From Tricharina praecox (lineage: Eukaryota): a stretch of DNA of 64,000 nucleotides. Under the pieces are notes generated by a model, which was not told the DNA's origin, searched no databases, and worked only from the letters and a program-made list of their open reading frames with translations. Each line of letters starts with the position of its first letter. Within the stretch, counting starts at the first letter, position 1. The DNA lies in the NCBI RefSeq assembly GCF_024521635.1, contig NW_026250405.1:682001-746000 (forward strand), given 5' to 3'. The translations under genes were made by a program, and so were the position numbers. Shown here one piece after another: positions 1,715 through 62,302 of the stretch.

Positions 1715-1800
1715 GGCCGCGTGGCCCAATGGCAAGGCGCTTGACTACGAGTAACAACTCCGATATCAAGAGATTGCAGGTTCGAGCCCTGCCGTGGTCA
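1715..1800 (+). tRNA. tRNA-Arg(ACG) with 14-nt intron (1751-1764)
   Basis: Cloverleaf GGCCGCG...CGTGGTCA, anticodon loop CTACGA^A, intron GTAACAACTCCGAT after position 37, T-loop TTCGAGC, oligo-T downstream. Confidence 0.95.
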
Positions 1801-2258
1801 TATGATCTTAACACTTCCTGCGGATTTCTTTTTCGGTGTTTCCCCTTCCGTATTGGTGCTCGAAACGAATTTTGCGGGATATCCTTCACGGACGCTAGTG
1901 GAGGCCGATAGGTTGAATCCCGAAACCCAGGTTTTGTCTCCGCCGTGAAATCGCCGTGCACCGCTCGAGTGTCGGTCAAACGTCCGACGCTGCGTCTTGC
2001 TGACCGGCAGCGGCGTGGTCACGCAGCTTCACTCAGTAGCAGAAACGCATGGTTAAAAACAATTTCGCCATCACATGACCGTTTCCCAAATGCTCTTTCG
2101 CACTCCCTGTAGGAATGCCGGATTACCGTAAAGTATGAGCCGTGACGGTAAAGTGTCCACGTAACGATGTAAGCTTGGCAGTAATGTTACTGCCAAGCTC
2201 CCCACACGCCACACGCCACACTGCGCCATCCGCATGACTCCGCCATGGCCGGTCGATC

Positions 2259-3480
2259 ATGGCCGATACTAGTGGGCGGGCGGCAGGCGGCGGGCGGCGG
2301 ACGGCGGGTGGGGTGAAATCTCTGCCATTCACTACACTCACTGAGGAAGATGCCAAACCCCAAGTCCAACCGCGATGTGGCTGCAGCTTTTACCAAGTCC
2401 ATGAAGCTTGGCCTCAAGGTACCTACCTATATGCTCTAATAGGGGTGCTTGACATTATGCGAAATCAAAAGCTGATGGCTGGGTGGATTGAAGTGCCCAC
2501 GGATGGGGTGCAATGCTTGCGGGGCAGACGATGCGATGAACACTACTCGCCAGGAGTACGAACGCGCCGCGAAGTGGAAGAAATGCTAGACGGACGAGCC
2601 TTGAACATCATCACCGACGAAAGCGCCGACATCACAAAGCATCGTATCGTTAGCATGAGCGTCAATGTCGGTCGTTTGACCTTTTTTCACAGGGCAGAAG
2701 ATGTTGGCAGTCGTAGTCTCACTGCACGCAATTACACCAATTGGATCCTAGAGCAGTTGGGAGTTATTACCCGCGGAGACTACCATCGGATCAATTATGT
2801 TGCCACAGATACCTGCTCTACGATGTTCACTGTCTGGAGGCTACTTGAAGAGGATTTCGAACAGCGGCTTCCGGATATTCGGATTCTATTTGTTCCATAT
2901 GATTCACACGGCCTGCAACTCTTAATCAAAGACGTGGTTGAGAAGATTCCGTGGTTTCAGATCGTCAGTCAGGGAGTGAGAAAGGTTGTGTCCTACTTCC
3001 GCGGTGCACATCTTCAGTATGCGATTCTTCGAGGCCGTCAACTACATCATTACGGCAAACATCTTTCGCTTCTTGCTTCAGTCATTACGCGATAGGGGTA
3101 GGACACAACCTTTCTCACTCCCTGACTGACGATCTGAAACCACGGAATCTTCTCAACCACGTCTTTGATTAAGAGTTGCAGGCCGTGTGAATCATATGGA
3201 ACAAATAGAATCCGAATATCCGGAAGCCGCTGTTCGAAATCCTCTTCAAGTAGCCTCCAGACAGTGAACATCGTAGAGCAGGTATCTGTGGCAACACAAT
3301 TGATCCGATGGTAGTCTCCCTGAGGGATCTAGCTGAGGCGAGTTCTTAACGTGCCGAGCCCTCAAATGATCTCGAAAAAGACCTTTCGCAAACTGAGATC
3401 ACAGGTAGGCGGGCTAAGCGAAAGTAGACTACTCGGGAAATAAGCGGTTTGACTAGTGTGTATAGACTCAGTAAGAATTC
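2259..3480. mobile_element. Degenerate, rearranged hAT-family transposase remnant
   Basis: The + ORF contains IITDES, VATDTCSTM, PYDSHGLQL (CxxH motif with C->Y) and ends ITR* where the hAT TRW motif is expected (TGG->TAG). The minus strand at about 3325-3480 reads PLISRVVYFRLARLPVISVCERSFS, resembling the hAT C-terminal dimerisation motif. Confidence 0.75.
2775..3319. repeat. 222-bp inverted duplication (arms 2775-2996 and 3098-3319, 101-bp spacer)
   Basis: The arms are reverse complements. The same peptide MFTVWRLLEEDF...VRKVVSY appears in ORFs on both strands; one mismatch was seen (2797 vs 3297). Confidence 0.95.
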
Positions 3481-4230
3481 TTCGGGAGAATGATTGTACA
3501 TATTCTATACATACTTCATATATACAACGATTCATGAGCAACAAAATTTTCCAGAAAATGGCAGCGGCCACGCCGGGCAGAGCGCCTCTATTTGAGGTGG
3601 TGGCGGAGGGGAGAGGAGAGCGGAATATGGCAGCGGCGAGGAGAGGAGAGCTGAATAGGTACAGCGGCGCGGAGAATGGAGCAGAGCACAACGGCGTCGA
3701 GAGGAGGGTTGAGTACAGAGGCACAGAGGAGAATAGAGGAGAGCAGAGCACGGCCGTATATACAGGAGTACACCAGCTGTTAGTCTTCCCTACCAGGCCC
3801 TCGCATATCACCGTGAGGCCAGTGTCACCGCACTGTCGGAGGGCCTGGTAAGGGAGACCGACAACTGGCGTACTTCTGTCTATACTGCGATGCTATGTTT
3901 TCCGCTCTGTACTGCTGCACTCCGCTCTCATCTCGCCGCCGCTGTGCTCTGCTCTCCTCTCCGCACCACCATACTCTGCAAAGTTCCCATCTACAAATGT
4001 ACACATCTACCACTATTCATTTTGCAGTGTAACTCTTGTTTTCCCACGCTTTCTGATCGCAATCTGGTAGGCAAGCATGCATGCATGGAGCTGGGCATGT
4101 GAGAAAATATGAATCTCGAGACCGAACCAGCAAAAGTTGCCGTTAATCTTCTGGAAGAAAACTGAAGACATTTTGATATCTCTGGAGCCCATAAAAAAGG
4201 CAAAAAGGTATTTTTCACACTCATGTTGAG

Positions 4231-4302
4231 TGACCACGGCAGGGATCGAACCTGCAATCTCTTGATTCGTAGTCAAGCGCCTTGCCATTGGGCCACGCGG
4301 CC
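4231..4302 (-). tRNA. tRNA-Arg(ACG), intronless
   Basis: 72-nt cloverleaf GGCCGCGTGGCCCAATGGCAAGGCGCTTGACTACGAATCAAGAGATTGCAGGTTCGATCCCTGCCGTGGTCA on the minus strand. Confidence 0.97.
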
Positions 4303-5792: not shown

Positions 5793-6078
5793 GGCGCTGT
5801 ACGTGAGGCGGGTGCCGGGGGCTTCTGAGCGAGAAAGGTTTAATGCTGGGTTGATATTATTTTCTTATTTAATGGCGAGAATGGGGGGTTTCGAGATTTT
5901 CTCTATGTAGTGCCCGCGAATGCTGTTTTTGCAGACTTCATCAGGCTCCAAAACCAACCCGAGTGATCGAAAAGAATAAAGGATCTTTATCAGCCATGGA
6001 GAGGAAACACCAAAAGATAATGCCTGATGAGCCACCAGAAGGAGCAAAAAGATATTCACAAAAAGTGATGAGATCATA

Positions 6079-6164
6079 TGACCACGGCAGGGATCGAACC
6101 TGCAATCTCTTGATATCGGAGTTGTTACTCGTAGTCAAGCGCCTTGCCATTGGGCCACGCGGCC
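6079..6164 (-). tRNA. tRNA-Arg(ACG) with 14-nt intron
   Basis: Same body as the intronless copies plus intron GTAACAACTCCGAT. Confidence 0.95.
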
Positions 6165-7358
6165 TGTGATGATTGCCTCCGAGAAACTGGAAAATTTAGA
6201 GTATTAAGCTAGACATAGCAGCCGTGGGCAGGTGCTTGGGGTTGGCCATAGACGCGGTCTGGGCGTGGGGCAGGTGAATGCATGGCGGTTCGATAGATTC
6301 AGAATATGAGTGCTGCAGTTGGGTCAACGGAGCCGCCCGAGCTGGCGGCTGTTCTACAAAGGTTTTTACGACTGTGCACTAGTTGGAGTGGTGACGGCCT
6401 TTAGATATCTACATAACGCGAACCAGGAAGCGAATAAGCTTTCCCCGCAACCACCACATCTTAGCCTAAATATGGCACAAAAACTGAGGAAAAAAAACCG
6501 AAACTGTGTGGCCCCGGCGATGAAACGGGAACTAACCTCTGGAGGTCAGTTTCTTCACCAGCACTCAGTACCGTATTTTAACTTCAACCATGGAGAAAAA
6601 AGCGGGACTGCAATGTGTCTGCTATTAAAGTTCCGGTGAAGCCTATTATTCAGACTTATGGCCGAGTACACTGAGAACTGCCAAACACTCTGTTTACCTC
6701 AAGGTTTTCCAGAAACTGAAACCGAACAGTACGGTATTCGGTGTCCCGACGGGGAACTGAATTTTACTCTAAAACTGGAACTGAAAACCGAGGCCATCCA
6801 AAGGGAGTAGCCTCATCAGATCGTAGGTATAGAACACTCTAGACCCTACAGAATACGGGTGTACTGTACTCGAATTGCATCATCATGCTTTAACTTCGTT
6901 CAGTGGGTTTCTTGAATGAGTGATGGGTGGTGTAGCTCGGCCGCTGAATTGTCGACTCGATCAAATTGCATCCAATTGACTGAATCCATCCTCAGAAGGG
7001 GTGAAGCAGCTGCGGACGCCGATCGCAGCGGAAAAGACTCGGGTCGAACGCTTGGTAACGTGACTACATAATCATTCTTTTGGGCCGCAACAAAATACCA
7101 AATATATATTGGAGGAAGAAACGCCAGCAATGGAAGTCTAGGTAAGATATAATCGAGCGCAGTAGACCAAGGAACCAGTAGATAAAATATGAACCAACAA
7201 AGCCAATGAAAATGAAAAGGAAAAAGAAACAATAGTATATCGACGAATTATGGGAAAAAAGAAGGGGAAAAAAGGTGAGGGGGTTTCCCGAGATCACCAC
7301 CTATTCATGTAACCACACTATCAGTATAACGCACACCGGGGGGGACTTTCGTTTCAAC

Positions 7359-8151
7359 TCACTCAGTATCCGAGTCATCGGTGCGATGTATACGCGTCTG
7401 CCACAACAACAGGGTGTGCGCCAGCTCCCTGAATTCCTTGACCAACGCCACGAACACGGTGCATTTCAACAATGCACTCATGTTCCTAGCGCAGTGCTCC
7501 GTGACAATGTCGCGGAGACTGGCCTTGCGGCTTGGCCATGCTTCCCCATCGGCGTATTCGTCCTCGGTCTCATCGTAGACGTAGGCCAACAACAAAACAA
7601 TCTCGTACTCCCAATCAGCTCCAGAGGCATGACGCCGAAGCGCCGAAGAGATGTTCCTCGTTGCCACGTCTTTGAGCTCGGCCATGAGCATCTCGTCTGC
7701 AAACATGGCCAGCTCCGCGTGCAAGAGGAGCTGATTGGTGGCGCCTTGAGGAAACGTGTAGGTTCCAGTATACAGGAGCCCCACGAATGCCTCGAAGACT
7801 TTGGACGAGACGGGATTGGGAAGCCTCGCGGAATACGCAGAGGCTTCCTCACCATCTGCCGACAGCAGGCTGGCGAAGTAGGGACAACGCCCCACGAGAA
7901 GCTCCCGATGGAGATGGTAGGTGTCGGCCCCAGCCCACCAACCATTAATAACGGCAAAAAGCACGAGGTTCTTGAAGATGTTGGTAAGAGAATTCTGGTC
8001 AGCGGAGACTGAGGATGAGGGCGGGGTGTGATTCTTACTCGGCCTTGAACTCTTGGGCTTTGGTGGTCGGCCGCGGCTGCCGTGGCTGCCGCTTCTCTGA
8101 GATCCTGGACGACTACCTAGGAATCTTGGGGATTTTCTCTGCACGAGGCAT
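7359..8151 (-). pseudogene. BTB/POZ-domain gene copy A, probably disrupted
   Basis: BTB-like YHLHRELLVGRCPYF...VFEAFVGLLYTGTY...HAELAMFADEMLMAELKDVA. Relative to copy B the ATG is at 8151, codon 13 is TAG (8113-8115; CAG in B), and the intron acceptor is CAA instead of CAG (7981). Confidence 0.75.
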
Positions 8152-8305
8152 CTTGACGGTGTGTTCGAAGCGTAAGGTCGGTGGAGAGAGAGGTAGAGTG
8201 TGTGCGTGTGTTTGTGGACAGAAAGATTGTGTGTGTGTCTATGTTGGTGAGAGAGGAGAAGGTAGGAAGAGAAAGAGAGAAGATAAAGTAGCGCGGCAAA
8301 GGATC

Positions 8306-8459
8306 GGCGAAAATGAAGATGAATGAGAAGTTGAGAAGCTGAGGTTTTATTCAACTTTGAAGAGCCATCTTAGCTCTCTGCTGCCACAAGCTATGATACC
8401 TCCACCGTTCGAGGCCACCCAATCCGGCTAGTGTGGCTATGATCCGACTTGCCACTCCT
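8306..8459. repeat. Dispersed ~200-bp element, copy 1 (upstream of BTB copy A)
   Basis: Shares GAAGTTGA..GTTYTATTCAACTT.GAAGAGCCATC...CGTTCG...ATCCGGCTAG with the copies at 28981, 43022, 58560 and 63442. Confidence 0.75.
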
Positions 8460-11031: not shown

Positions 11032-11209
11032 CGCTCTCCAGGGGATGTGTTCTTCGGAAAGCTGGAGTTACTGTTAGCGATGGTCCAAACCCTCAGAGTA
11101 GGAAGTTGCATGTACGTACACTGCGCGTTGTTCTGCAGTCAAGGTTCTAAATCCAAGTCGAGTGTATCGACGGTGCCAGTGGATAGTATGGGTCGGGGCA
11201 AAGAGTGTT

Positions 11210-11385
11210 GGTAGAGGAGAGATGTTGGTTGAGGAGAGTTGTTGGTTGAGGAGAGTTGTGGGTCGAAAGGGATATTGAGGAGAGTTGTGGGTCGAAGAGA
11301 GTTGTTGGTTGAGGAGAGATATAGGTAGAAAGAGGTATTGAAGAGAAAGATGGAGAGCTGTGGGTTGAAGAGAGATGTTGGTCGA
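11210..11385. repeat. Degenerate tandem repeat (GAGGAGAGTTGTTGGTT-like)
   Basis: Repeated GAGAGTTGT(T)GG(T/G)T units. Confidence 0.6.
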
Positions 11386-11912: not shown

Positions 11913-11997
11913 GGCCGCGTGGCCCAATGGCAAGGCGCTTGACTACGAGTAACACTCCGATATCAAGAGATTGCAGGTTCGATCCCTGCCGTGGTCA
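11913..11997 (+). tRNA. tRNA-Arg(ACG) with 13-nt intron
   Basis: Same body with intron GTAACACTCCGAT; TTTTT terminator downstream. Confidence 0.95.
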
Positions 11998-13333
11998 TAT
12001 GATCTCATCAGTTCCAATATGTATCTTTTTGGTGTTTTAGTGGGGGGCGACGGGACGAGCACGTGAAGGACTTTGTGAGTGAGAATCCAGACCCCCGTTC
12101 CAGGGGGAAAGTGTTAGAGGATGACCTTGAGGCGGTTTTGGGAGCCTTAGGAAAGGGAAGAAACCTCCGGACGACGGTTATCCGGTGGAGATTAAACTTT
12201 TCCTTCGTCTGAGAGACTTTGAGTTTATATTGCGGCGGTGGTGGTCCAGGGAGATACTCTTCTGTAGTCACGAAGAGCTATTGAAAGCCTGGGAGCTAGC
12301 ATTGTGTGATCATGTGATCTCCGTTTATCGTCAGAGTGCCACTGTACAGCAATTTTGCAAACAGAAAGTTCGAGTTTAGTGATTCGTTAGCATCCGATGT
12401 GTTCGTTCGAGGCTGGTTGAGACAAATCTGTACAAAGGCCGCAGCGAGACCGGTGCTCTTTCTCCGGTACTCTGTCATGTCACTAAGCCCGGTACTGGCT
12501 CGTATCTTGTTGAGCCGATCCCCACATAGAGCAGTCCTGAGAACGAATGGCATCCCGACAGCATTTCCCAGTGGGCTAGTACATCATCACATACGGGGGG
12601 TCGGAATCGGTGAGGCCTCGCCTATCAGTCGTCGGGTAGGCAACTCCACCTTGAATGATTCCTCATTCTTCTTGGTCCATTAGTTGGGGCAGAAGGGATC
12701 CTTGCGGGTATTAGACATCAGGAGGATGCGGGCGACAAACACCCTTGGTAGTTAACTGAGAGCAGAAGATAAGGTGCATGATGTTCCTCGAGTTGCTATG
12801 AAAGATTCTGTAGTCGCAAAGCCTGTGGAGGATGTTGGTACGGTAGCCATGTTCAGGAGGGTGTCCCAATCGGTGAAAGCGTTGGTCCTGGTATGGAGAG
12901 CAGTTAAGAACATGTTTCTCCAGAGTAACGAGTTAGAACATCCTTGTATGTAAAAGTTTACATCATACTTCTACATACCGCTCAAATACCTACCGCTCAA
13001 ATATCTACCGCTCAAATACCTACTCGACAGTGTGCAAGAGATGTTTAGGACTGCTGTTAGGTATTATGGACTCACGGAAATAGCATCGAGGGGTTGAGAC
13101 GACTTTCGGTTACCTCAAATTCCAAATTGAATCCACTCAACTCTCTGTCACCCGAGCACCGTCCAGCGTCTGCTAGTGAACCTTTAAGTCACGTGTCCGG
13201 TCACCGGCCCTATCCTATGTATCTTATCGTTAGCTTAGCTTACCCATCTTCAGCCGCCAACCTCCATTATCCCACGCAGCTTGAGCAAGCACCTTCAACC
13301 ACAGCACACCCTCACCTCCCTCCATCCCCAATC

Positions 13334-50381: not shown

Positions 50382-50415
<34 letters not shown>

Positions 50416-53400
50416 CCGGACGGCCCGCCCCCGCACCCAGACTCCAGTGCAGCCTGTGCCGGAATCCCGAGGGGCTGGAATGTGTGCATGCGTCTGTCTC
50501 AGCGTCTGTGTCTGTGTCGGCGGATTCCGACGCGGTACCTACGGCAGGTGTAGGTAACCAACTACCTAGGTAACTACCTGGGTAGCGATGGGTGTTACGT
50601 TTATTCTCGATCGGCGGATTTGTGATTCCGCGGGGGCTCGAGAAATACTGCTACCGAGGCAATCAAGCTATACGGCAGATGGAATGAGTAGGGAGGGGGC
50701 GTGGGAGGGAGGAAGGGAGGGAGGGATGCTCGAATTGGGTGGTGGTGGTGGTCATCTCCAGCTCGAAGGGACGAGTGCGGCCTGCGGGGAACCGGTGAGC
50801 GGAATCCGAAGCGCGACAGGCAGACAGACAGAGAGAGAGAGAGAGAGGTGAGATGAACTCGGTTTTGATTGCTGCAGTGAATTTGCCGAGCTGACTTTAC
50901 AGAGTAGAATGCGCTCTACCGGCGTCGACGCGATGCATCGGCAGACTACTCGGAAGTCGAGGTCAGTTTCCTTCGGTGGGCAATGCTATGTAATGGCGAC
51001 GATGGTATTGGCTCCCCGGCATGGGGGGTTGCTATCCTCCTGTCGCTTGAGGCAATCGGACGCGGTTCTGTGATCGCATTGTTGGTGTGACGGGGCACGG
51101 GGATGCATATCCGGATCCGGTGTTCATTCGAAGGCCTCTCTGCGGATGGATGGACTGGTGCCGGCGTTCGAATCCTGAAGGTGCGTCCGCATAATCCTAC
51201 CGACGAAATATGCAAGAGCCAGGAGGTCAAAGTTCCAGCAGCAGCACCCGATGGCAGGCTATTCTTCACGGTCGTAGAGATCACTGAGCAGCAGCAAGCT
51301 GAGGTTGTGGAGACGCGACGACGACGACGGACAACGACAGACCAAAGCTTGTTGTGTGGTTATGGCTCGCTTGGACGGGAGATCGCCGCTTGGCATGCAC
51401 CATGCCGTCATCAGAGAGAAGGTTAATATTCTTTCTTTCCGCAGTATCATACATAGTTGCAGTTGTGTTGCCGGATACGGAGCTGTGTTTTATCTCTGAG
51501 GAACCCAGGAGTTATCTTCGTCTCGCGCGTGCGACACGACTGAGCTGGCGGAGCTGATACGGCATCAGTCGGTGGTGATGGTTCGAGCTGGAGGGGACTC
51601 ATCGCACCGATTCCCCAACCAAATTAATGGCCTTGTGGGAATGCACGACCGAGAAGTTGGGGGCCCACGCGCCCGGCCCGCGGGAGGAATCATACCGAAG
51701 AATGCGGGCGGGCAGAAGGAGAGCCCGTGCAGCCGGTACGAGATCTGCAGACTCGCTTTCTCGTCTCGCCTCGTCTCGCCTTTCGCCTCGAGCGATGATC
51801 TCTGGGGGGGTTGGTTTCGAAAGGTCAGTTCCTCCTTTTCCACACAACGATATATTTTTAACACGGTAGCTGAAGATTATCTAGCAACAAGGATATTCCT
51901 TACCACAGTGACTTCAGCCGGATGCTCCGGACGCGGGACCTGTCCGGAAGATGACGACATGCACTCTACTATATGGAATCTTTGGATGGATATATCTTAC
52001 ATGTCGCCGACCGCGTACCGGCGATGGCCATGGACCATGGTCGGAGTTGCCACTCCGCGGATGTGTGCGCGTGGCGTTATGGTTTCTACTCCATTGGCGT
52101 TAATTCGTAGATTGCTTTGACACCTGCAGCAAGCGCAGGATATGGGGGGGTTGTGGATCGGGGGCTGGGGGCTGGAAGGATTGGTGGGTTGAAGGAACTG
52201 GCAATTTACTGGAATGGATGGACCTTGGAGGGATCGGTGACAGGTGGCGGCGATCGCGAGATCGAGTGAGGGGATGTGATACGCTCGGTCGGTTGTGGGT
52301 TTAGTTATCGGCTAATAAGAAAGCAGAAGGATATCGATATGCCGTGCGCACGGGGGTGGGTCCGGCATCTAGAAATGAGGAGAATATACACCTATCTACT
52401 GCTGGAGGATGAAGGCTCGGTACTCTATAGTACTTTCCGTGCAATCCTCCGTCTACATAGTACTAACGGCGGCTAACGCACGATGTATCTAGGCTAAATT
52501 GAAGCCAGGTGGTTACAGTAAGTAAATATTCCGGTGAAGATTTGAGTTTTTTATTCGTGAGGCAGAGAGGCCGTTTGCGTCTACCAAGAGCCATAGTGCT
52601 TTGTATATGGGCTGGTAAGGATGATGGCCACTGCCGCTATTCGGATACACAGTAACTACTGTAGCTGATGGTTACTCGGTGGGAGTTAATACCGTACGGA
52701 CAGGGCCCCCCCGCGGCTAGGATGCGACTCGAAACGCCGGATGGGTGAAGGTGAAGGTGGTGATCACTGGCCAGTGGGTGCCATGAATACATACATACAT
52801 ACTCTCCGGCACCTATAGTTACGGCACACCGAAACACTCGACGGTAGTGGTCTCCCTCCCCCGACATGGTCAGGACGGCGTACACGATGGGTGCGCAATG
52901 TGGTATGCGCGGCCTGTATGCTCCGGCGGGATTTGTTGCATCCATATTCACTATCCGGCACTTTAGATTTTCCCAGCATCGTGGAACCGCACCCCCCAGC
53001 TTCAGCACAACATACCTCTACATACTAGGTATACTGTTATCCCTTGCTCACTCCTCGCCTCTCCCCCTCCTCAGGCTCCTCCTCCTCTACCTCCTCCTCT
53101 ACCTCCTCCTCCTTCTCCAAGACTCCAACAGTCGCCACCGCATTCCGCCACGCCCACATCCCTGAACCAATGAAGCCCTGACTGACTGGCAGCTCACATC
53201 CCAGAAGTTTCTTAGGCCGCAATTCGGCAATTGGATCCAGAAGCGAAACGCTGCGCTGCACAGCACAGCAGAGAGCAAGGAAGAAGAAGCAGCAGAAAAC
53301 GAAGAAGAGCAGAAGAAGAACTAGAGGAAGAACTGGAATCCCAAGGGGCTGGCCGCTGGCCGCTGGCCAATCGGTCTGTGCACCATTCATCCCCTCCCCC

Positions 53401-55594
53401 CTCCCCTTTCTTTTCAAGAGAGAGCGCAACGGAGAGTGCTGGTTGGTGGATCGGAGCGAGACCGCTGCGGTTTCTGAAGATTGCTGGAAAGTTCCACATA
53501 GTTACCTACCTACTCGATGTGCGCTGCGCTGTTCTGTGCACAGCTATAGATAACCACTGCATACTACCGGTAGCTGGTTACTCGGGCTTGTCGTTAGTTA
53601 TTCCATCACTCTCCTGCTGTTGCTGTTGAAGTATTTAATTGCGACAAAGAGTCCAACAAGTACAAGATACCTACCTCCCACCTAGGTGGTAGTATGTAGT
53701 CATGATTCGGGACCGAACAGCAATGCGATCGACACAAACACAAGCACAACACAAGACAAGAGGCACAGGCACAGCAGGGGGTTTCATGTTGAATGTGTAT
53801 GTGTATATAGCGAGGAGGACGCAGCAGCATGTATGTCTCAGAAATTCTCGGTGCTGCTGTGTTACTGCAGAGTACCCAAGTACAATACATGGCAAACAAC
53901 CCCAACCGCTGGCTGGATCAGCAGCGGGCTGGCTCGCCGGCTGGGTAGAAACAGCGAGCGAGCGAGAGGCCGGTCGGTCGGTCCGCGAAGCATTCCGATT
54001 GGTGGTCTCTGCTTGCTGCTCTGCTCCGTTGGGTGTGGCGGGGGTTAGGGGCGGGCAGCAGGGATTCGGGAATTCGGGGATTCGCCGCGAGTGAGCGCAA
54101 GTGATTCGTCGAGCGCGGAGCGCGGAGAGTAGCCTTACGGCTGATACTTTCGTTTTTTTTCGGTTTTTGTGGCGGGGGGAGGGGGGAGGGGTGAAGGGGG
54201 GATGTACTGGTACGGCAGCGAAAATACTTGCCGACAGTTTCTTTCGTGATGCGAGATGCGAGATGGTGGGGAATTGGAATGGTGTGTTGGTGGTGATGGT
54301 AGGGGGGGCTAGTACCGTTCGAATTTCCGAAGCGAGAACGGCTGATGTCTGATGTCTGATGCCTGGGCTGGCGATGGGCCGCGGGCGTGGGAGGCGCACG
54401 GGAAAAGACATGGGAAACAATATTGAAACATACATACCGCAATACCGCATTCGCCGCGCCAGGCGGCCAGCCAGCCAGCCAGCACCGCACCCCCGAGTGT
54501 TGAGATGTCGAGGCACCAACCGAACCGAACCAATGCAATGCGTGCGGCGTTCCATGTCAATCATGTCAATCTCTGCTCTTTCCAGTGAGTCGAGCATGGC
54601 AGAAACGCTAGCTAACTATGTGACTATGTCGAATCCATCTGTGGCTGCAGCACGGGAGGGAGGGAAGGAGTGAAGGACGGTGGGACGGTGGGTCTCGTTC
54701 TGTTCCTCCCTCTCCCTCTCCCTCGCCATCCTGAGACCGACTGACTGACCGAGACACACCGGCACACCGACACACCGTCACACTGTCGCTTCGGTGTGGA
54801 ACATCGCAGCCAGCCAGCCAGCCAGCACACCGGTGGTGGTGGATGGTGGATGGTGGGTGGGTGGTGGTAGTAGACGGTGGCAATTGTGGCTGCGCGGCAT
54901 CATTCCTGTTCCTTATTCGTTCGTTCGGTGAGGACTCTCGTGCAAGGCTACGTGGCTCAGTCCGTCCGTCCTTTCCCTTTTTGCGAACGAATGCTGGTGA
55001 TCAATGCTCGACATACCACCGTAACGTAACGTAAAGCTGGCCGGTTGTTCTTTTCTGGGTTTCATTGTTCCGCACGGCGCATCGCACAGACTCGGTTCTC
55101 GCCAGTGGCCATGGATGGCAGTGCGTTACCTACATACTTGTTAGCCGGTGGTAGGTATGATAGCGGAAGTTGAAGTCGGAAGGGCTGACGGAATGGGATG
55201 GGGATATATCAGCCACCGGCCAGCCAGTGCAGTGCCTCTCACTCTGTATGTGTGTGTAATGAAGAGGTAAAAAAGAAGAAGAAGAAGCGGAAGTCGAAGT
55301 CGAATGAATGCTTTGGCTGGCTTCGGAGCGCGAGTGAGTATGTAGCTATGCGATGCTACTGTATCAGTCGATGCCCATCCATAGGTGCATAGCTCGTGCT
55401 TTCGGACAGCAGGCTTGACATTGTATCTCGCCCGGGCCCGGGCAAGTATCCGTTCATTCGAGGTGGACGAGTGACAGCAGAGGAGAATCACGGCGCTGAG
55501 CTGAGAAGAGTGACCGTTCATGTATGAGCGGAGCGAGCAGAGTGAAACGAATGTAGTCCATGAGTGTAAAGATGCCCAGAGGGACATAGTGGCT

Positions 55595-55666
55595 GGCCGC
55601 GTGGCCCAATGGCAAGGCGCTTGACTACGAATCAAGAGATTGCAGGTTCGATCCCTGCCGTGGTCA
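55595..55666 (+). tRNA. tRNA-Arg(ACG), intronless
   Basis: 72-nt cloverleaf with oligo-T downstream. Confidence 0.97.
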
Positions 55667-56711
55667 CTTCATTCTTTTGTGTTTGTGCTTTTTTTTTTTT
55701 TTTTGCCGGTCTCGCGAGTCGCGACTAGCCGTGCTGCGGTGGCCCTACTATGTTGGTAGGACACTCCTTCACCTAGCCGGCTAATAAATATGTAAATAAT
55801 CCGTGCAATCCGCGCACGGACGGCGGGATGGTGCCGTTCCGCTATGTAGACCGATGTCCCGGACCGGGACTTCCAAAAGTCTGTGGTGTACTATGTGTAC
55901 ATAGGTAGCCTAGGTGGACACTTAATCAACTCTATTGGAGCTCAAGCTCGCAGCTCGGCTCGTTCCTTACGCGGCTCATACAGTATTGAAACGGTTCGCA
56001 ACCTAGGATTAAGAAACCATTGTGGCCGATGGTACTGGTTATCGGACGGTCACGCAGAATCACTCGAGGTGCTCGCGGGGCGGGGGATCTCGGAGTTTTG
56101 TCGTTCTTGAATCTACCCAGCGAAATGGGGTTCTTCTTCTTCCCCGAGAGGAGCGCGAGCGGCGCCTGTTGGTACAGACTTTAGCTGGAAAGGAATGATG
56201 GAGCGCAGGATCGGTATTTACTTATCTATAGTACTCTACTGTGACATATCAGGCCCATCATTGAGGTACCTAGTCTGGATTCTGGTCCTTCAATTGTACG
56301 TAACCAACATTTAATAAGAATCAAGTGTACATATTCAGTTCAGAAGCTGGATCATACCTAGATGTACCTAATGTACCGTAGTCGGGCCGCATCGTGGAGA
56401 TCGAGTGCCCCGGATAGGAATCCCCACGATAGGCGGCCAGCGGTCTTACATATAGTAGAACGGCTACGGCTTGAAAGTTAAAGGACGTTGTGTTCCGTAC
56501 CTGTTCATCCCATATTCTATATATCCTCTTTATGCGGCGAGACGGCGGATTGTTCCACATTCGATGCTCCTCCGCACAGCTACTACCCCCTCCCCCCCCC
56601 CCAATCGCCCATCACCCACCCGCAATCCCCCGCCGCCGCCCTCGTAGTCCGAAGCAGAACAAAATAAAAAACATCTAAAAAAGAACCCAGAAGTCTGATG
56701 ATGTGATAATC

Positions 56712-56783
56712 TGACCACGGCAGGGCTCGAACCTGCAATCTCTTGATTCGTAGTCAAGCGCCTTGCCATTGGGCCACGCGGCC
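56712..56783 (-). tRNA. tRNA-Arg(ACG), intronless, T-loop TTCGAGC variant
   Basis: 72-nt cloverleaf on the minus strand. Confidence 0.97.
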
Positions 56784-57603
56784 GGGATTGATGGCTTGAG
56801 TTAGCCACACAGACTTTGTACATATTCACCCGGCTTTCAGTTATTATTCTCCCAGGACTGAATCAACCGGCTGTGCTTGCGGTGGGAGACGGCGTTGAAG
56901 GGTGGTGGGCGATGAGTCAGTTTTCTGGTATGCTAGGTAGTGTATTTCGAGGCACCGTGATAGAGTAGACCGTAGAAACCGTGCTGCTCACGGTCAACGT
57001 CTGGATGACTTTGAGAGGAGCCGGTTGAGTAGAGTTCACCACGGGATTACTTGGGGATATTTTTCCCGAGAGACTCCGCCGGCATCCGATACTGACCTAC
57101 GAAGGCATCTATGCGTACATGGGGGAGAATGATACATGACGGCCGATACAATAACACTCGTGTATGGTGCTTGAGGAGGAAGCGGGTGAAGTAGACTCCT
57201 TGGGCGTGAGATTGGAAACCTCGAATGGAATATTGTCTGATGGGAAAATTAAGTACTTGTGCCATTGAAATTTACATATTTTCTATCTAATCATTCTTTT
57301 GGGCCGCAACAAAACTCCAAGCTTAACGATGAAATTATCGGATATGTACCAAATAGATATTGAGGGAAGAAACGCCAGCAACGCAAATCTAGGTAAGATA
57401 CCAATGGGCACAGTAGACCAAGGAACCAGCAGATGAAATATGACCCAACAAAGCCAATGAAAATGAAAAGGAAAAGGAGAAAATGGTATATTGACGAATT
57501 AAGGAACTTAAAAAAAAAAGGTGCGGGGGTTTCCCTCGATCACCACCTATTTATGAAGCCATATTATCAGCATACCGCACAGCAGGGGGGCTTTCGTTTC
57601 AAC

Positions 57604-58381
57604 TCACTCGGCATCCGAGTCCTCGTCACGAAGTATACGTGTCTGCCACAACAGAAGAGTATGGGCCAACTCTCCAAAGTCCTTGACCAACGCCACGAAC
57701 ACGGTGCATTTCAACAATGCACGCATGTTCCTGGCGCAGTACTCCGTGACAATGTCGCGGAGACTGGCCTTGCGGCTTGGCCACTCTTCTTCACCGGCGT
57801 ACTCGTCCTCGGTTCTCTCGTAGATATCGGCCAACAACGAAACAATCCCCCAGTCAGCTCCCGAGGAGGAATGACAACGAAGCGCTGAGGAGAGGTTTCT
57901 CGTTGCAGCGTCTTTGAGGTCCGCCATGAGCATTTCGTCTGCAAACATGGCTAGTTCTGCGTGCGATAGGAGCTGATCGGTGGCGTCTGGAGGGAAACGT
58001 ATAGGTTCCAGTATATAGGAACCCTACGAATGGCTCAAAGACTTTGGACGAGACTGGATCGGGAAGCCTCGCCAAATTCGCAGAGGCTTCCTCGCCATCG
58101 ACCGACAGCAGGCTGGTAAAGTAGGGACAACGCCCCATGAGAAGCTCCCGATGGAGATGGTAGGTGTCGGCCCCAGCCCCCCAGCCATTAATGACGGTGA
58201 AGAGCGTGGGGTTCTTGAAATAGCTGGGAAGGGAATTCCGGTCAGCAGAGACCGAGAATGAGGGCGGGTGTGATTCTTACCTGGCTTTGAACTCTGTGCC
58301 TTTGGTGGTCGGCCGCGGCCGCCGCTCCTTGGCGATCCTGAACGACTGCTTGGGAATTGACTTCTTTGCTGCACGAGGCAT
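57604..58381 (-). pseudogene. BTB/POZ-domain gene copy B, single frameshift; exon 1 58381-58281, intron 58280-58224
   Basis: MPRAAKK...EFKA^SYFKNPTLFTVINGWGAGADTYHLHRELLMGRCPYF splices in frame. One extra C near 57992 (TTTCCCTCCAG vs TTTCCTCAAG in copy A) shifts the frame; this could be a sequencing error. Confidence 0.75.
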
Positions 58382-58484
58382 TGTGATGGTGTGGTGGTTG
58401 AAGCGTAAGGTTTGTGATGAGAGAGATAGATAGTGGGGGTGTAGGCTTGCGGAGAGAGAGATTGTCTGTGTGTGTCGGTTGATG

Positions 58485-58522
<38 letters not shown>

Positions 58523-58559
58523 GAGAAAGAGAGAAGATAACGTGGCCCGGCAAAGGATC

Positions 58560-58694
58560 GGCGAAAGTGAAGATGAATGAGAATTTGAGGTTCTATTCAA
58601 CTTCGAAGAGCCATCTCAGCTCTCTGCTGCCACAGACTATCACACCTGCACCGTTCGGGGCCACCACTAGCCACTCCTCCTATCTTATCTGATC
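58560..58694. repeat. Dispersed ~200-bp element, copy 4 (upstream of BTB copy B, 3'-truncated)
   Basis: GAGGTTCTATTCAACTTCGAAGAGCCATC...CCTATCTTATCTGATC. Confidence 0.8.
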
Positions 58695-58699
58695 TCAAA

Positions 58700-58766
58700 G
58701 CAATCTCTTGATATCGGAGGTGTTACATACTCGTAGTCAAGCGCCATACCATTGGGCCACGCGGTC
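58700..58766 (-). pseudogene. Truncated intron-containing tRNA-Arg(ACG) pseudogene
   Basis: The minus strand reads GACCGCGTGGCCCAATGGTATGGCGCTTGACTACGA-GTATGTAACACCTCCGAT-ATCAAGAGATTGC and then stops, with no T-loop or 3' acceptor strand. Confidence 0.9.
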
Positions 58767-60271
58767 TGGATGAGGGAGGACGGGATTCATGCCATTATGA
58801 CCAGAGGGTCAAATTGCAAGGAGGAGGAGGAAGGCAGGCTGATGGCCCGCGGTCGGATACAGAGCCGATACTCGGATCAGCGGGGGTTATCGCCAGGCAA
58901 CCGGAGAAGGGAATACCTGCGTGAGAGCACGGCTTCCACCCGCTCCATAGGTGTTCGCTCGGCTTGAACCAGGGTTTCGCCGGCACTTCCGTGGATCCCT
59001 CGATGTGGTAGCATTCGCCCCGTAGCGTCCGGACGCAGCGAGGTAAACGCCCTTCAACTTATGTACATTCCGGAGCACTCGACCATACGAGCGAAGTCAA
59101 TGTTGTAATATCTCACTCGTCGCTTAGTTTGTCGGACTGGTCGGTACTGGGGCGGGCAGGAAACGGAGTTCGTTGGTTCGCCATAGTCTAGATAGGCTGC
59201 ATGCGAAATAAAACAGGAAGATCTCTCCCTCTCTCTCGTTGCTTAGTCGTTTGTGCGGTCATGACGTCGGGGAGCACTAGCCGCCTACCACCCCTCTTTT
59301 ATGTCTTCTCTCGAGGCTTTCAGACTCTTACAATACAACAACAATACATTGCTTGTTCACACATTCCAACAGTCAAGCCCGGAGTGCACCTGTTTATCAT
59401 GAAACGAACCGAGAGCATTTCGAATTTCGCAAGAAGCGTGGTATGTACTAGTAGTAAGCGGTATCCGTGTGCCGGACCAACCCGTCGTTCATGTAAAGTC
59501 ACTCACTGTCCACACCCGCTGTTCGAGTTCCCGGACTTCGGATTTCAGGCGCAGCGGACCCTCCGTCGAGTCACTCGTATGTACGGATAACTCGTTTCCC
59601 CCACGGCTAGCTTGCTATTCTGTCCTGTATACCGTACACACTGCCTTCTCACAGCCCGCGACGCGCAAGCGGCTGCGAGGGCGGACCGACACCGACACCT
59701 TTTTCTACATACCGCCGGGATTGGCTAGGAGTAGGCTGTCTAGTCTCACAGTCCCAGTGGGGGGATGCACAGGACGGTCGGCGGCGGCCGGTCACCGATC
59801 CATCCCGTTCGTCCCGTGGGTATGTAGCACTGCCCGTAGCATCCACACACGAGTCTGTACTGAGAGTATGTACTGTTCTTGTAGGTAGCCCGTTGAACCT
59901 GCGCTACTCTACAGACAGATACATCTCTCTGGCTGCGTGTCAGTATCGAATCCTTCTCTGCGTATGAATTATCCTGGCGCCGAGGATGTGGTCATGATCA
60001 GCTCGACCGTGATTGGGACGGAATTCAACAGACCTCGATCCTCAATTGATCGATCGCCGGTGTTGTGCATGATCCGTCTACCCGCCCCGGCCCGTTCCGG
60101 GACGCTGTGGTGCCCGATCGAAAGGCAACAGAGCGAGATGTGGAGCACAGTCATGCCGGACCGTACAATATGTTGATGCCTCAGCCGGGACACAAGGGAT
60201 ACAAAGTGGGGGTGAATCGTGTCCGAACAAAAGGTAAAAAAAAGAGTTTCAAAGAACCTGTTGTCTGGTTG

Positions 60272-60343
60272 TGACCACGGCAGGGATCGAACCTGCAATC
60301 TCTTGATTCGTAGTCAAGCGCCTTGCCATTGGGCCACGCGGCC
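60272..60343 (-). tRNA. tRNA-Arg(ACG), intronless
   Basis: 72-nt cloverleaf on the minus strand. Confidence 0.97.
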
Positions 60344-60784
60344 AATATGATGATGAATCGGCCTTGTACTACAACCATCGTAAAGTGCATAGCACGGCAC
60401 AATAATTGGTAGAGAGGGATTGAAGGTGCGGTGTCACCTGACTCGGAGCCGGCGACGAGGGGACACCGGATTATTTTGGTGCCTCTACGGCCGAGGATCA
60501 GTGCAGAGACTCGGCCCCACGGCGATTGGAGGAGTTGGCGAGAGGACGGGAGAGAGCCGTTGAGGCTCATTTGTTTGGTCACGGAGGGTCCACTAGTACG
60601 TCACATGGGAGAGAAGTGTAATACCTAGTACTCAAGTTGCGATGACCGACGCCCATGCCAGATTTCGCAACCCATTCCGCAATTCTCCCAAGTCTAATCT
60701 TCTAGAGTACATTCCTTCCTCCCCCGTTTTTCAGCGAAATAAAGTCGCACTCAACCTGCCCAGCTCAGAAGCGGTAGCGAAATC

Positions 60785-61318
60785 TCAGAAAGCGCTGCCC
60801 GACGGCGGTTCCGGAATGTCATGCGCCCTAAACAAGAACTTCTCGGGGAGGCAGTAGAGCCTGACCAGCTTCCTGAGCGGCAGAACGTCGTAGCCGTGCT
60901 GGAACAGCCACATGTGCTTTGTGTACCACATGTCCTCGAAGCGGAGTTCGTTCTGGATCAGCAGCTCGAGGACGCGCCACGACTGGTGCACCACGCACAT
61001 GACCCACAGCGGGATCGGCGGGAAATACCAGTCGTGCTGGTAGATCCAGCCGCGCATCTCGGCTCGGTAGTTGCGGTGCGGCCGCGCATCCCAGCGGAAT
61101 TGGTGCTCGAGCATCGCCGGCGTGAGGAGCGGCGCGAGGAACGTGTCCGAGTCGTTAACGATCGCGTAGTACAGGATTCCTGCCGTGCTGTATTTTTTGA
61201 GTGTCGGATGGGTGACGTCCAGCATCGCCTTGTTCGTGAGACACAGAGAGAAGAGATCGGGGAACGGAAGGTAGGATATGACCCGGAAGTAGAGCTCGAG
61301 CGGGAGTTGTTGGAGCAT
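60785..61318 (-). CDS. Small F-box domain protein, 177 aa
   Basis: N-terminal MLQQLPLELYFRVISYLPFPDLFSLCLTNKAM F-box pattern; intact intronless ORF with C/G-ending codon bias. Confidence 0.75.
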   Translation of the reverse strand: MLQQLPLELYFRVISYLPFPDLFSLCLTNKAMLDVTHPTLKKYSTAGILYYAIVNDSDTFLAPLLTPAMLEHQFRWDARPHRNYRAEMRGWIYQHDWYFPPIPLWVMCVVHQSWRVLELLIQNELRFEDMWYTKHMWLFQHGYDVLPLRKLVRLYCLPEKFLFRAHDIPEPPSGSAF

Positions 61319-62230
61319 CGTGGGCAGGTGGTAGGTGGTTTGGCGGTGGTATTAAGGGTTGTTTTTGTGTGGTGATGGTATTAACGGTTTTTTGTGTGTA
61401 TCCGTCAGTGGTGAATGAGGGGAGTGGGAGAAAGAAAGTGTGGAGTATCAACTCGCTTATCTAACAAGCCGGCGGATAGTGGAACGCCGTTCTCACATCC
61501 GCCACACGCTAGCGTGGCAAGCTCCGTCGGCAACATCCTTCAATTTTCACATGCTATGAGAAACGTTGAAATCCATCTCCCGTTCGTTTGATTTACTTGT
61601 GGCTGGGGATGGCTGATGCAAGCCGATAATAACACCTCAGGCTGGCCTAACCCGATTGCAGCTAGCGTTAATCTTCTTCTTCAGACATCAGTGATCCGGC
61701 GCATTCTATATAGCATCCATCTCCCCCGTGGTGACAATTGAGATGGCAGACAACACCTGCCGCGTGTCCCGGTCACCACTAAACTCTAGGTAGGTTGTGT
61801 AGCCGCTGTGTAAAATATATACACCGTTCAGTAAACGCAAAGCCATGCCGAAGCTTCTGACGCTTGCCGGACCCGCTTCCCCCTCGTGTCTCCGGCAAAA
61901 GTATTGGCGAGATGGCTCGCTACCAGAGTGCGGACTCGAGTGCGAAGCTCCGCGTTCTGGACTCCGGACGGGAAAGGCGCCGACGAGTATATGCAGCCGT
62001 GGCCGTGCAGCTGTTGAACGAGCGAGTCCCACAGTAGTTACCGGTGTGCCACTTTTCGGTCCGAGACCCTAACTTCACTCCACCTTGTAACCCTGGTAGA
62101 TAGTGCAAGATAGCCGATCTTATGCTACTCGATGCCGATCCTGCTCGATACCGAAGTCAACGGGCTGTCCATCTGCGTCTCTGCATCCCGAGTCCGCTGG
62201 GTACGTAGCAAAATGACAAAAAGAAATCAT

Positions 62231-62302
62231 TGACCACGGCAGGGATCGAACCTGCAATCTCTTGATTCGTAGTCAAGCGCCTTGCCATTGGGCCACGCGG
62301 CC
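62231..62302 (-). tRNA. tRNA-Arg(ACG), intronless
   Basis: 72-nt cloverleaf on the minus strand. Confidence 0.97.

What the first reader, a model, noticed from the sequence alone, without database searches (positions are those of the whole stretch)
1715..62302. Nine tRNA-Arg(ACG) copies, and no other tRNA seen, in two arrays bracketing a conserved core
Seen: four copies at 1.7-12 kb and five at 55.6-62.3 kb, in mixed orientation and spaced about 1-6 kb apart. The bodies are identical apart from one T-loop base, while most flanks are unrelated. No copy lies in the 43-kb core (CSN1, F-box/WD, flbD, N/Q protein). Known: fungal tDNAs are usually dispersed, and tDNAs can act as chromatin barriers, recombination hotspots and insertion targets. 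Inference: a single-isoacceptor tDNA scaffold that seeds local duplication and gene capture, and may insulate the flbD domain.
Basis: partly seen in the sequence, partly recalled or inferred. Interest (0 to 1): 0.75.

Follow-up and report, generated by a model that had tools for sequence, protein, structure and literature searches.

The report
Clustered arginine tRNA genes, cup fungus
A 61-kb stretch of a cup-fungus chromosome carries eight working copies and one broken copy of the same arginine tRNA gene, made by repeated local duplication in a rearrangement-prone region; this is a real but fairly ordinary kind of tRNA gene cluster.

Summary
The cluster is real. The window holds eight intact tRNA-Arg(ACG) genes and no other tRNA type. 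The "ninth copy" (58697-58766) is a truncated relic without a T-arm.

Flanks are not all unrelated. A tRNA + BTB-gene unit occurs three times at 70-87% identity, and two of the BTB copies are decayed.

The best protein match names Tricharina praecox (99% identity). Metagenome contigs of at least two related fungi carry Arg(ACG) genes beside the same neighbour genes: Ank, CSN1/F-box and a second F-box. Part of the cluster is therefore ancestral.

Relative to those contigs, the "core" is inverted or transposed, with a breakpoint within about 1 kb 3' of the 55595 copy. The core is therefore not a fixed, conserved block.

Best reading: serial local DNA duplication, purifying selection on the tRNA bodies, and some gene conversion.

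Not testable here: insulation of the Myb (flbD-like) domain, and the genome-wide distribution of Arg(ACG) genes.

Verdict: a new member of a known kind, of modest interest.

The parts
1715..1800 (+). tRNA-Arg(ACG) gene with a 14-nt intron; T-loop position 59 is G
   Evidence: Rfam RF00005 scores 50.8 bits against a gathering score of 29. Sequence. T5 run 28 nt downstream. The fold gives an anticodon-intron helix (copies 6079 and 11913).
4231..4302 (-). tRNA-Arg(ACG) gene, intron-less. Its flanks resemble those of the 55595 copy and of the L016 copy in a relative.
   Evidence: Rfam 62 bits. 74 nt are 100% identical to 55595-55668. L016 2124-2238 matches 4310-4193 at 87%.
6079..6164 (-). tRNA-Arg(ACG) gene with a 14-nt intron; the tRNA of unit A
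   Evidence: Rfam 51.3 bits. 125 nt are 92.8% identical to 1709-1833.
11913..11997 (+). tRNA-Arg(ACG) gene with a 13-nt intron, 1.3 kb upstream of CSN1
   Evidence: Rfam 51.4 bits. 127 nt are 89.8% identical to 1715-1841. No counterpart in the 5 kb upstream of CSN1 in L006.
55595..55666 (+). tRNA-Arg(ACG) gene, intron-less. It is the ortholog of the F-box-adjacent tRNA in related fungi.
   Evidence: Rfam 62 bits. L012 5910-5996 matches 55594-55680 at 98.9%, including the trailer. The trailer is shared with L006/L004.
56712..56783 (-). tRNA-Arg(ACG) gene, intron-less; T-loop position 59 is G; the tRNA of unit B
   Evidence: Rfam 61.5 bits. 56712-57559 aligns continuously to 62231-63066 at 70%.
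58697..58766 (-). Truncated tRNA-Arg(ACG) relic. It keeps the 5' half (3 substitutions), an 18-nt intron variant and 13 nt of the 3' exon. It has no T-arm.
   Evidence: Pattern match with 3 mismatches. Sequence read. No tRNA hit at E<=10. Aligned with the intron-bearing copies.
60272..60343 (-). tRNA-Arg(ACG) gene, intron-less, 445 nt from the second F-box ORF
   Evidence: Rfam 62 bits. T8 run downstream.
62231..62302 (-). tRNA-Arg(ACG) gene, intron-less; the tRNA of unit C. It is the positional counterpart of the L014/L015 tRNA in a relative.
   Evidence: Rfam 62 bits. The L014 tRNA lies 910 nt from the 5' end of the F-box2 homolog, as here (880 nt).
6045..8459 (-). Unit A: tRNA, about 0.9 kb of spacer, the BTB/POZ ORF (7362-8369) and small repeat R
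   Evidence: 7096-8419 is 81.4% identical to 57347-58665. BTB domain E=2.8e-7. Atlas places it with small ascomycete BTB clusters.
56699..58773 (-). Unit B: tRNA, spacer, a frameshifted BTB copy, repeat R and the tRNA relic
   Evidence: tblastn of BTB-A returns pieces in two frames, 52% over 339 aa and 81.5% over 92 aa.
62219..63872 (-). Unit C: tRNA, spacer and a fragmentary BTB copy interrupted by a ~46-nt poly-C run, plus repeat R
   Evidence: tblastn returns three short pieces in three frames. Nothing matches beyond residue 170 of BTB-A's 336 aa.
13261..17654 (+). CSN1 + F-box gene pair, colinear with related fungi. In those fungi a tRNA-Arg(ACG) follows directly.
   Evidence: L004/L006 are about 80% identical in nucleotides over 13261-15099 and 15448-17491. 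L012 covers 15479-17654. Pfam RPN7+PCI and F-box. 99% identity to a Tricharina praecox protein.
51625..55680 (+). Block colinear with L012 up to and including the 55595 tRNA and 14 nt of its trailer. In L012 the F-box gene follows.
   Evidence: L012 876-3986 maps to 52227-54665 in the same order. L012 149-646 maps to 52202-51625, locally inverted.
55681..56711 (.). Interval that holds the right-hand rearrangement breakpoint, between two tail-to-tail tRNA genes
   Evidence: Homology to L012 and L006 ends at about 55680-55684. In the relatives the F-box gene follows; here the 56712 tRNA follows.

Best explanation
This is a genuine chromosomal cluster of nuclear tRNA-Arg(ACG) genes in Tricharina praecox or a very close relative (Pezizomycetes, Pyronemataceae). 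It holds eight apparently functional Pol III genes and one dead relic.

The genes are of two old gene types that give the same mature tRNA: intron-less, and with a canonical 37/38 intron.

The cluster grew by repeated local DNA-level duplication of short units of roughly 0.1-2 kb. At least once such a unit carried a neighbouring BTB gene along.

The tRNA bodies stay identical mainly through purifying selection. The surrounding DNA and the co-duplicated BTB copies decay, which is why most flanks now look unrelated.

Short-tract gene conversion between copies probably homogenises the intron and trailer, and has switched intron state in some copies.

Part of the cluster predates the split from at least two related fungi. 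The region has since been rearranged with breakpoints next to tDNAs.

The copy number plausibly serves demand: this tRNA reads CGU, CGC and CGA.

Shown: the gene set, the introns, the paralogous units, the decay of the BTB copies, the orthologous positions in relatives and the changed junction.
Inferred: gene conversion, the order of events and the dosage rationale.
For: Gene integrity:
- 8 of 8 copies score 50.8-62 bits against the Rfam gathering score of 29.
- 8 of 8 have a B-box match, against 0.69 expected in the window.
- 8 of 8 have a run of at least 5 T within about 10-35 nt downstream.
- Copies 6079 and 11913 fold as a cloverleaf with an anticodon-intron helix.

Duplication:
- Units B and C align continuously from the tRNA into the BTB gene, 70% over 926 nt. 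A-B is 81.4% over 1353 nt.
- The tRNA exons in these units are 98.6-100% identical.
- BTB-B is frameshifted and BTB-C is a fragment.
- The four right-hand minus-strand copies have start-to-start spacings of 1985, 1575 and 1959 nt.

Selection:
- The exons are identical to those of related fungi whose coding DNA is only about 80% identical. L006 9963-10037 matches the window at 100%.

Conversion (inferred):
- The three intron-bearing copies share intron, about 6 nt of leader and 33-41 nt of trailer at 90-93% identity. Their wider flanks are unrelated.
- Unit A carries an intron-bearing tRNA, while units B and C carry intron-less ones whose trailers still resemble the intron-type trailer.

Ancestry:
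- 4 of 8 distinct relative loci share neighbour genes with the window. These are L016 (Ank), L004/L006 (CSN1 + F-box), L012 (F-box + the 52-55 kb block) and L014/L015 (F-box2).
- Intron-bearing Arg(ACG) genes also occur in the relatives: L003, L011, L017, and a degenerate one in L016.

Demand:
- 82 of 150 Arg codons in six ORF stretches (1902 codons) are CGT, CGC or CGA.
Against: - No whole genome was available. I cannot say how many Arg(ACG) genes lie elsewhere, or whether such clusters are the rule in this genome.
- Pyronema confluens, of the same family, is reported with 605 predicted tRNAs in 50 Mb (PMC3778014, passages). Large tRNA families may be normal here.
- Gene conversion is inferred only from patterns of identity. 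Recent duplication of ~130-nt units would give the same picture.
- The spacer of unit A does not align with those of B and C, apart from 32 nt. Common descent of A's tRNA with those of B and C is therefore not shown.
- The inversion cannot be polarised. The window species and relatives X and Y are about equally distant (~80% nucleotide identity).
- The metagenome contigs are short-read assemblies that could be chimeric at a 72-nt repeat. The shared trailer on the F-box side argues against this.
- Expression of the copies is not shown.
Confidence: 0.75

Rival explanations
1. The two tDNA arrays are a selected scaffold that acts as chromatin barriers (TFIIIC/Pol III) insulating the Myb (flbD-like) domain, and actively seeds duplication and gene capture.
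For: tDNAs lie on both sides of the 43.6-kb tRNA-free interval. In the relatives too, a tRNA-Arg sits at the F-box edge of that block.
Against: There are no chromatin or Pol III data. The block is not positionally conserved: it is inverted or transposed relative to two relatives. There are no orphan B-box sites inside it. The 'captured' genes are one BTB gene co-duplicated with the tRNA and then decaying. The relatives' loci hold no BTB copy: 0 of 17 loci have a tblastn hit.
Confidence: 0.08
2. Home-locus reading. Most or all Arg(ACG) genes of these fungi are kept in one chromosomal neighbourhood, an isoacceptor-specific locus maintained over speciation. The reason could be co-regulation or concerted evolution.
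For: The window holds 8 intact copies of one isoacceptor and no other tRNA. In the relatives, loci (i)-(vi), which I collapsed at 97% identity or more, hold 7 intact genes. Of these, 5 lie on contigs that share genes with the window: L006 has 1, L016 has 1, and the L001/L014 contig has 3.
Against: 2 of those 7 genes have no similarity to the window outside the tRNA. These are L005, next to an inositol-polyphosphate kinase gene, and L003, next to an EF3/New1-like gene. It is not known that the six loci belong to one species. Only copies with an exact 36-nt 5' half could be found. A family relative is reported with 605 tRNAs, which would imply many more Arg genes.
Confidence: 0.12
3. RNA-mediated spread. 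The copies are retroposed pre-tRNA or tRNA copies, or heads of a tRNA-derived SINE, which would explain identical bodies with unrelated flanks.
For: The shared stretch of the intron-bearing trio runs from about 6 nt upstream to just past the T-run, roughly the predicted primary transcript. A ~200-300 nt dispersed repeat (R) abuts the relic.
Against: Every copy has its own terminator and an intact body. No common SINE body or tail follows the tRNA. Similarity between 1715 and 11913 runs about 8 nt past the T-run. B and C are duplicated together with 0.5 kb of spacer and a gene. The other four R copies carry no tRNA head.
Confidence: 0.03
4. Assembly artefact: the arrays are produced by mis-assembly of a repeated 72-nt sequence.
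For: A perfect 222-nt inverted repeat at 2775-3319 could be a fold-back artefact. No read-level check could be made.
Against: Each copy has unique flanks, and the repeat is shorter than any read type. Independent metagenome assemblies of related fungi carry tRNA-Arg genes beside the same genes. The matching named protein sits on a 1.89-Mb contig.
Confidence: 0.02

Closest known systems
Homogeneous nuclear tDNA clusters of eukaryotes (surveyed by Bermudez-Santana et al. 2010, PMC2888827, passages read). Examples are the Arabidopsis tRNA-Cys repeats (PMC10701932, abstract start only) and Drosophila tRNA families (PMC2997554, abstract start only).
   Same: Several genes of one isoacceptor lie close together. 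They arise by local duplication, evolve in concert or under constraint, and turn over between species.
   Different: Spacing here is 1.0-5.7 kb, above that survey's 1-kb cluster threshold. Orientation is mixed and the units are heterogeneous rather than a regular tandem repeat. Intron-bearing and intron-less genes of the same isodecoder are interleaved. I found no description for Pezizomycetes.
tDNA chromatin barriers: the yeast HMR tDNA, fission-yeast centromeric tDNA clusters, and the human 1q23.3 tRNA repeat proposed as a boundary (PMC4041453, abstract start only; the yeast cases are recalled)
   Same: tDNAs flank a gene block on both sides.
   Different: No heterochromatin, centromere or silenced domain is evident. 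No functional data exist. The flanked block is rearranged between species.
tRNA genes at synteny or rearrangement breakpoints in yeasts (recalled from the literature, not checked here)
   Same: The junction 3' of the 55595 copy and the Ank-side tRNA pair differ in arrangement from related fungi. The breaks lie within about 1 kb of tDNAs.
   Different: There is no evidence that the exchange went through the tRNA sequences themselves. No tRNA or relic remains at the left edge near 17.6 kb.
tRNA-derived SINEs of fungi
   Same: Many copies of a tRNA-like sequence with differing flanks.
   Different: The bodies are full, canonical tRNA genes with their own terminators. There is no shared 3' body or tail, and some copies are duplicated together with kilobases of flanking DNA.

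Membership tests
Nuclear tRNA gene (Rfam RF00005), Arg anticodon ACG | Cloverleaf covariance-model score above the gathering threshold | tested here: met
   8 of 8 copies score 50.8-62 bits against 29. The relic gets no hit even at E<=10.
Nuclear tRNA gene (Rfam RF00005), Arg anticodon ACG | Anticodon ACG at positions 34-36 | tested here: met
   ARAGORN types 5 of 8 as Arg(acg). The other 3 have identical exons interrupted after position 37.
Nuclear tRNA gene (Rfam RF00005), Arg anticodon ACG | Internal Pol III promoter (B box; consensus recalled) and a downstream T-run terminator | tested here: met
   There are 8 B-box matches, all inside the 8 genes, against 0.69 expected. Runs of at least 5 T lie within about 10-35 nt downstream of all 8.
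Nuclear tRNA gene (Rfam RF00005), Arg anticodon ACG | Transcribed, processed and charged | not testable with these tools
   No RNA data could be obtained.
Intron-containing eukaryotic tRNA gene | Short intron one base 3' of the anticodon (37/38) that pairs with the anticodon region | tested here: met
   An insert of 13-14 nt follows position 37 in 3 copies. The MFE fold of 6079 and 11913 gives a cloverleaf with an anticodon-intron helix; 1715 folded otherwise. The same gene type is present in relatives.
Homogeneous tDNA cluster as defined in PMC2888827 | Adjacent tDNAs of the same isoacceptor family less than 1000 nt apart | tested here: not met
   The smallest gap in the window is 1045 nt. 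The pair in relatives L001/L008 is about 900 nt apart and would qualify.
Regular tandem tRNA array (Entamoeba or Arabidopsis type) | Head-to-tail repeats of one unit with high identity | tested here: not met
   Only units B and C align throughout, at 70%. The other spacers are unrelated and orientation is mixed.
tRNA-derived SINE | A tRNA-related head followed by a shared non-tRNA body and tail | tested here: not met
   Trailers end in T-runs within 35 nt and the downstream sequences differ.
tDNA chromatin barrier or insulator | TFIIIC/Pol III occupancy and a chromatin-state boundary at the tDNAs | not testable with these tools
   No chromatin or ChIP data were available.

The most novel reading that the evidence does not exclude
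In Pyronemataceae the Arg(ACG) gene family may be held largely in one chromosomal neighbourhood, an isoacceptor 'home locus' that has persisted across species. There, intron-bearing and intron-less genes exchange sequence by gene conversion. Its tDNAs would also define the breakpoints of local inversions around a developmental Myb regulator.
Probability: 0.12. Interest if true: 0.55.

Novelty: new member of a known kind. Interest (0 to 1): 0.3.

Why it matters
The locus is a clean natural example of how a tRNA gene family grows. The tRNA bodies are kept letter-perfect while co-duplicated DNA, including a protein gene, decays at 13-30% divergence.

Intron-bearing and intron-less genes for the same mature tRNA sit side by side. 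That makes tRNA intron gain, loss and conversion directly comparable within one locus and across related species.

It also adds a filamentous-ascomycete case to the association of tDNAs with rearrangement breakpoints.

If the family really is concentrated at one locus, the window would be a handy system for asking whether tDNA clustering matters for Pol III regulation or chromatin in filamentous fungi. As it stands, nothing here demands a new mechanism.

Tried and rejected
Routes that gave nothing:
- The whole-genome route failed. No genome is held for the window, and the records behind the metagenome loci are not held. The genome-wide distribution of Arg(ACG) and other isoacceptors was therefore not tested.
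- A read-level check of the assembly and of expression could not be made (one search gave no result).
- Three look-ups of earlier scan findings returned nothing.
- A scan of prokaryote genome contigs for the 36-nt half found 0 matches.

Attempts to place the relatives' two unplaced loci:
- I tried to place L005 and L003 on the T. praecox scaffold through their neighbour genes.
- The searches used an inositol-polyphosphate kinase and an EF3/New1-like ATPase.
- Neither gave a T. praecox-named protein among the 120 listed each, so there is no conclusion.

Literature:
- Seven searches found no paper on nuclear tRNA gene organisation in Pezizomycetes.
- Supplements were not consulted. The co-occurrence tables of PMC2888827 may contain fungal data that I did not see.

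Readings considered and rejected:
- A tRNA-derived SINE. The bodies are intact, each has its own terminator, and there is no shared tail.
- An assembly artefact. Flanks are unique and relatives have orthologous copies.
- Exchange through inverted tRNA copies as the cause of the inversion. No tRNA or relic remains at the left edge.
- Repeat R as a tRNA-headed element. 4 of 5 R copies have no tRNA part.

Full report
OBSERVATION

ARAGORN and Rfam at gathering thresholds each report eight tRNA genes in the 64-kb window. They lie at 1715-1800(+), 4231-4302(-), 6079-6164(-), 11913-11997(+), 55595-55666(+), 56712-56783(-), 60272-60343(-) and 62231-62302(-).

Reading the sequences shows one exon sequence with anticodon ACG (Arg). 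One variable T-loop base, position 59 by my numbering, is G instead of T in 2 of 8 copies (1715 and 56712).

Five genes are 72 nt long. Three (1715, 6079, 11913) carry an insert of 14, 14 and 13 nt directly after position 37. This is why ARAGORN mistypes those three.

The 36-nt 5' half matches nine times, eight exactly and one with 3 mismatches, against 0.00 expected from shuffles. The 3' half matches eight times.

The ninth place, 58697-58766(-), is a relic. It has a mutated 5' half, an 18-nt intron variant and 13 nt of the 3' exon, and then unrelated sequence. It gets no tRNA hit even at E<=10.

A permissive Rfam scan of the whole window (E<=1) gave 17 matches. Eight are these genes and nine are sub-threshold matches to other families. 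A B-box pattern search gave 8 matches, all inside the genes, against 0.69 expected. Both show nothing tRNA-like between 12.0 and 55.6 kb.

- There are eight intact genes plus one dead fragment.
- Introns are present in three genes and in the relic.
- The flanks are only partly unrelated.

ANATOMY

All eight genes have a run of at least five T within roughly 10-35 nt downstream and score 50.8-62 bits against the tRNA model. Copies 6079 and 11913 fold into a cloverleaf in which the insert pairs with the anticodon region, the usual form of a eukaryotic pre-tRNA. The MFE fold of 1715 came out differently.

Gaps between neighbouring copies are 2430, 1776 and 5748 nt on the left. On the right they are 1045, 1913, 1505 and 1887 nt. 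The four right-hand minus-strand copies are 1985, 1575 and 1959 nt apart start to start.

FLANKS AND DUPLICATION

Self-comparison shows three paralogous units:
- Unit A, 6045-8459.
- Unit B, 56699-58773.
- Unit C, 62219-63872.

Each has a minus-strand tRNA followed after 0.5-0.9 kb by a BTB/POZ gene (Pfam; small ascomycete BTB clusters in the Atlas). A and B are 81.4% identical over 1353 nt. B and C align continuously from the tRNA through the spacer into the gene, at 70% over 926 nt.

BTB-A is one long open frame. BTB-B is split over two frames. BTB-C is three short pieces interrupted by a ~46-nt poly-C run. The tRNA exons inside these units are 98.6-100% identical.

The spacer of A does not align with those of B and C, except for 32 nt.

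The three intron-bearing genes share intron, about 6 nt of leader and 33-41 nt of trailer at 90-93% identity. Their wider flanks are unrelated. Copies 4231 and 55595 share about 40 nt on each side. The trailers of 56712 and 62231 still resemble the trailer of the intron-bearing type.

ORGANISM AND RELATIVES

The CSN1 frame is 99% identical to a protein that its source names Tricharina praecox, on a contig of 1,887,961 bp. Other Pezizales follow at 70-78%.

An exact-match scan of metagenome contigs with the 36-nt half gave 17 loci. After collapsing contigs that are 97% or more identical, these are eight distinct loci from at least two related fungi. I call the relatives X and Y. Each is about 80% identical to the window in coding DNA.

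ARAGORN finds only Arg(ACG) genes in these loci. Three of them are intron-bearing and mistyped, and L016 adds one degenerate intron-bearing copy.

Four of the eight distinct loci share neighbour genes with the window:
- L016: the Ank gene is followed by an intron-less tRNA and then an inverted intron-type copy. This is the reverse order and orientation of the window's 1715/4231 pair.
- L004/L006: CSN1 and the F-box gene are followed after about 0.7 kb by a tRNA.
- L012: the window's 52.2-54.7 kb block runs in the same order. It is followed by a tRNA with the trailer of the 55595 copy (98.9% over 87 nt), and then by the F-box gene.
- L014/L015: a tRNA lies 910 nt from the 5' end of the second F-box gene, as with the 62231 copy.

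A further pair of tRNAs lies 19 kb from the L014 tRNA on the same contig.

Three distinct loci show no similarity to the window outside the tRNA: L005/L009, L003/L011/L017 and L013. L005 sits beside an inositol-polyphosphate kinase gene, and L003 beside an EF3/New1-like gene.

The 5 kb upstream of CSN1 in L006 shows no similarity to the window's left array. None of the 17 loci has a BTB homolog.

REARRANGEMENT

In X and Y the ortholog of the 55595 copy abuts the F-box gene. In the window the two are 38 kb apart, with the Myb gene between them, and the 52-55.7 kb block has the opposite orientation relative to F-box.

The simplest account is an inversion of about 17.6-55.7 kb. An inverted transposition of the ~4-kb block plus tRNA is not excluded, because the relatives' contigs end there.

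One breakpoint lies in 55681-56711, between two tail-to-tail tRNA genes. The other lies to the right of 17654. No tRNA or relic remains there.

The direction of change cannot be set without an outgroup.

Chimeric assembly at the repeated tRNA is a caveat for the metagenome contigs. However, the trailer shared with the 55595 copy lies on the F-box side, in unique sequence, in both X and Y.

MECHANISM

I read this as serial local DNA duplication of tRNA-bearing units, with purifying selection holding the tRNA exons. The exons are also identical between species whose coding DNA differs by about 20%, so selection alone explains the identical bodies.

Gene conversion is the likely cause of two features: the near-identical introns and trailers of the intron-bearing trio, and the mismatch between unit membership and intron state. 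This is inference.

A dosage rationale is plausible. 82 of 150 Arg codons in six confident ORF stretches are CGT, CGC or CGA. By established decoding rules an A34-to-inosine tRNA reads these three codons.

Nothing tested speaks for or against a barrier function.

COMPARISON WITH WHAT IS KNOWN

Homogeneous tDNA clusters are widespread in eukaryotes (PMC2888827, passages). By that paper's <1-kb criterion the window's copies are not formally clustered, since the smallest gap is 1045 nt.

For density context:
- Sclerotinia and Botrytis are listed with 191-200 tRNAs in about 38-40 Mb (PMC3158057, passages).
- Pyronema confluens is listed with 605 in 50 Mb (PMC3778014, passages).

Eight genes in 61 kb is therefore roughly 10-25 times those all-tRNA averages, and far more than that for a single isoacceptor. 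The Pyronema figure also warns that tRNA families may be generally enlarged in this family of fungi.

I found no paper on nuclear tRNA organisation in Pezizomycetes.

VERDICT

The cluster is real and partly ancestral, and it is built by duplication in a rearrangement-prone region. It is a new member of a known kind. The insulator idea remains untested, and the 'conserved core' is not conserved in arrangement.

Noticed in passing
window 2775-3319 (arms 2775-2996 and 3098-3319): A perfect 222-nt inverted repeat with a 101-nt spacer. It overlaps the 3' part of an ORF (2238-3092) with a weak DUF659 (hAT-associated) match, E=8e-6, below the Pfam cutoff. It could be a fold-back of a transposase remnant or an assembly artefact.
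   Followed up: partly
window 3657-3977: A second long imperfect palindrome (about 70% self-complementary over 310 nt). It gives a sub-threshold hit to a plant miRNA-precursor model and looks like a MITE-type hairpin between two tRNA genes.
   Followed up: no
window 8333-8459, 28967-29139, 43012-43260, 58559-58708, 63787-63938: A small dispersed repeat ('R', about 130-250 nt, 70-90% identity). It has three copies at the 5' side of the BTB units and two inside the tRNA-free core. It is absent from the 17 relative loci. In unit B it abuts the tRNA relic.
   Followed up: partly
window 63090-63135, 50383-50412, 39620-39640: Long poly-C runs (about 46, 30 and 20 nt), all on the plus strand. The longest replaces the middle of BTB copy C.
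   Followed up: no
window 5100-5743 and 9124-9753: A pair of direct paralogous segments (67% over about 650 nt) inside the left array, with no Pfam domain in their ORFs. This is further local duplication, separate from the BTB units.
   Followed up: no
window 11197-11412 and 19451-19587: Tandem repeats of 17 nt (about 8 copies, roughly 0.5 kb upstream of the 11913 tRNA) and 19 nt (about 6 copies, 4 of them identical).
   Followed up: no
L016 about 2070-2131: Directly upstream of the tRNA gene in a related fungus is a 22-nt micro-tandem (about 2.5 units). Each unit consists of the leader plus the first 11 nt of the tRNA, which looks like slippage at the 5' end of the gene.
   Followed up: no
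L001 8130-9569 (relative's contig): The closely spaced tRNA-Arg pair of the relative lies next to a TsaD/Kae1-family gene, which acts in tRNA t6A modification. This is probably coincidence.
   Followed up: no
L012 149-646 against window 52202-51625: A ~0.6-kb segment is locally inverted between relative Y and the window, at the inner edge of the block that is otherwise colinear.
   Followed up: no
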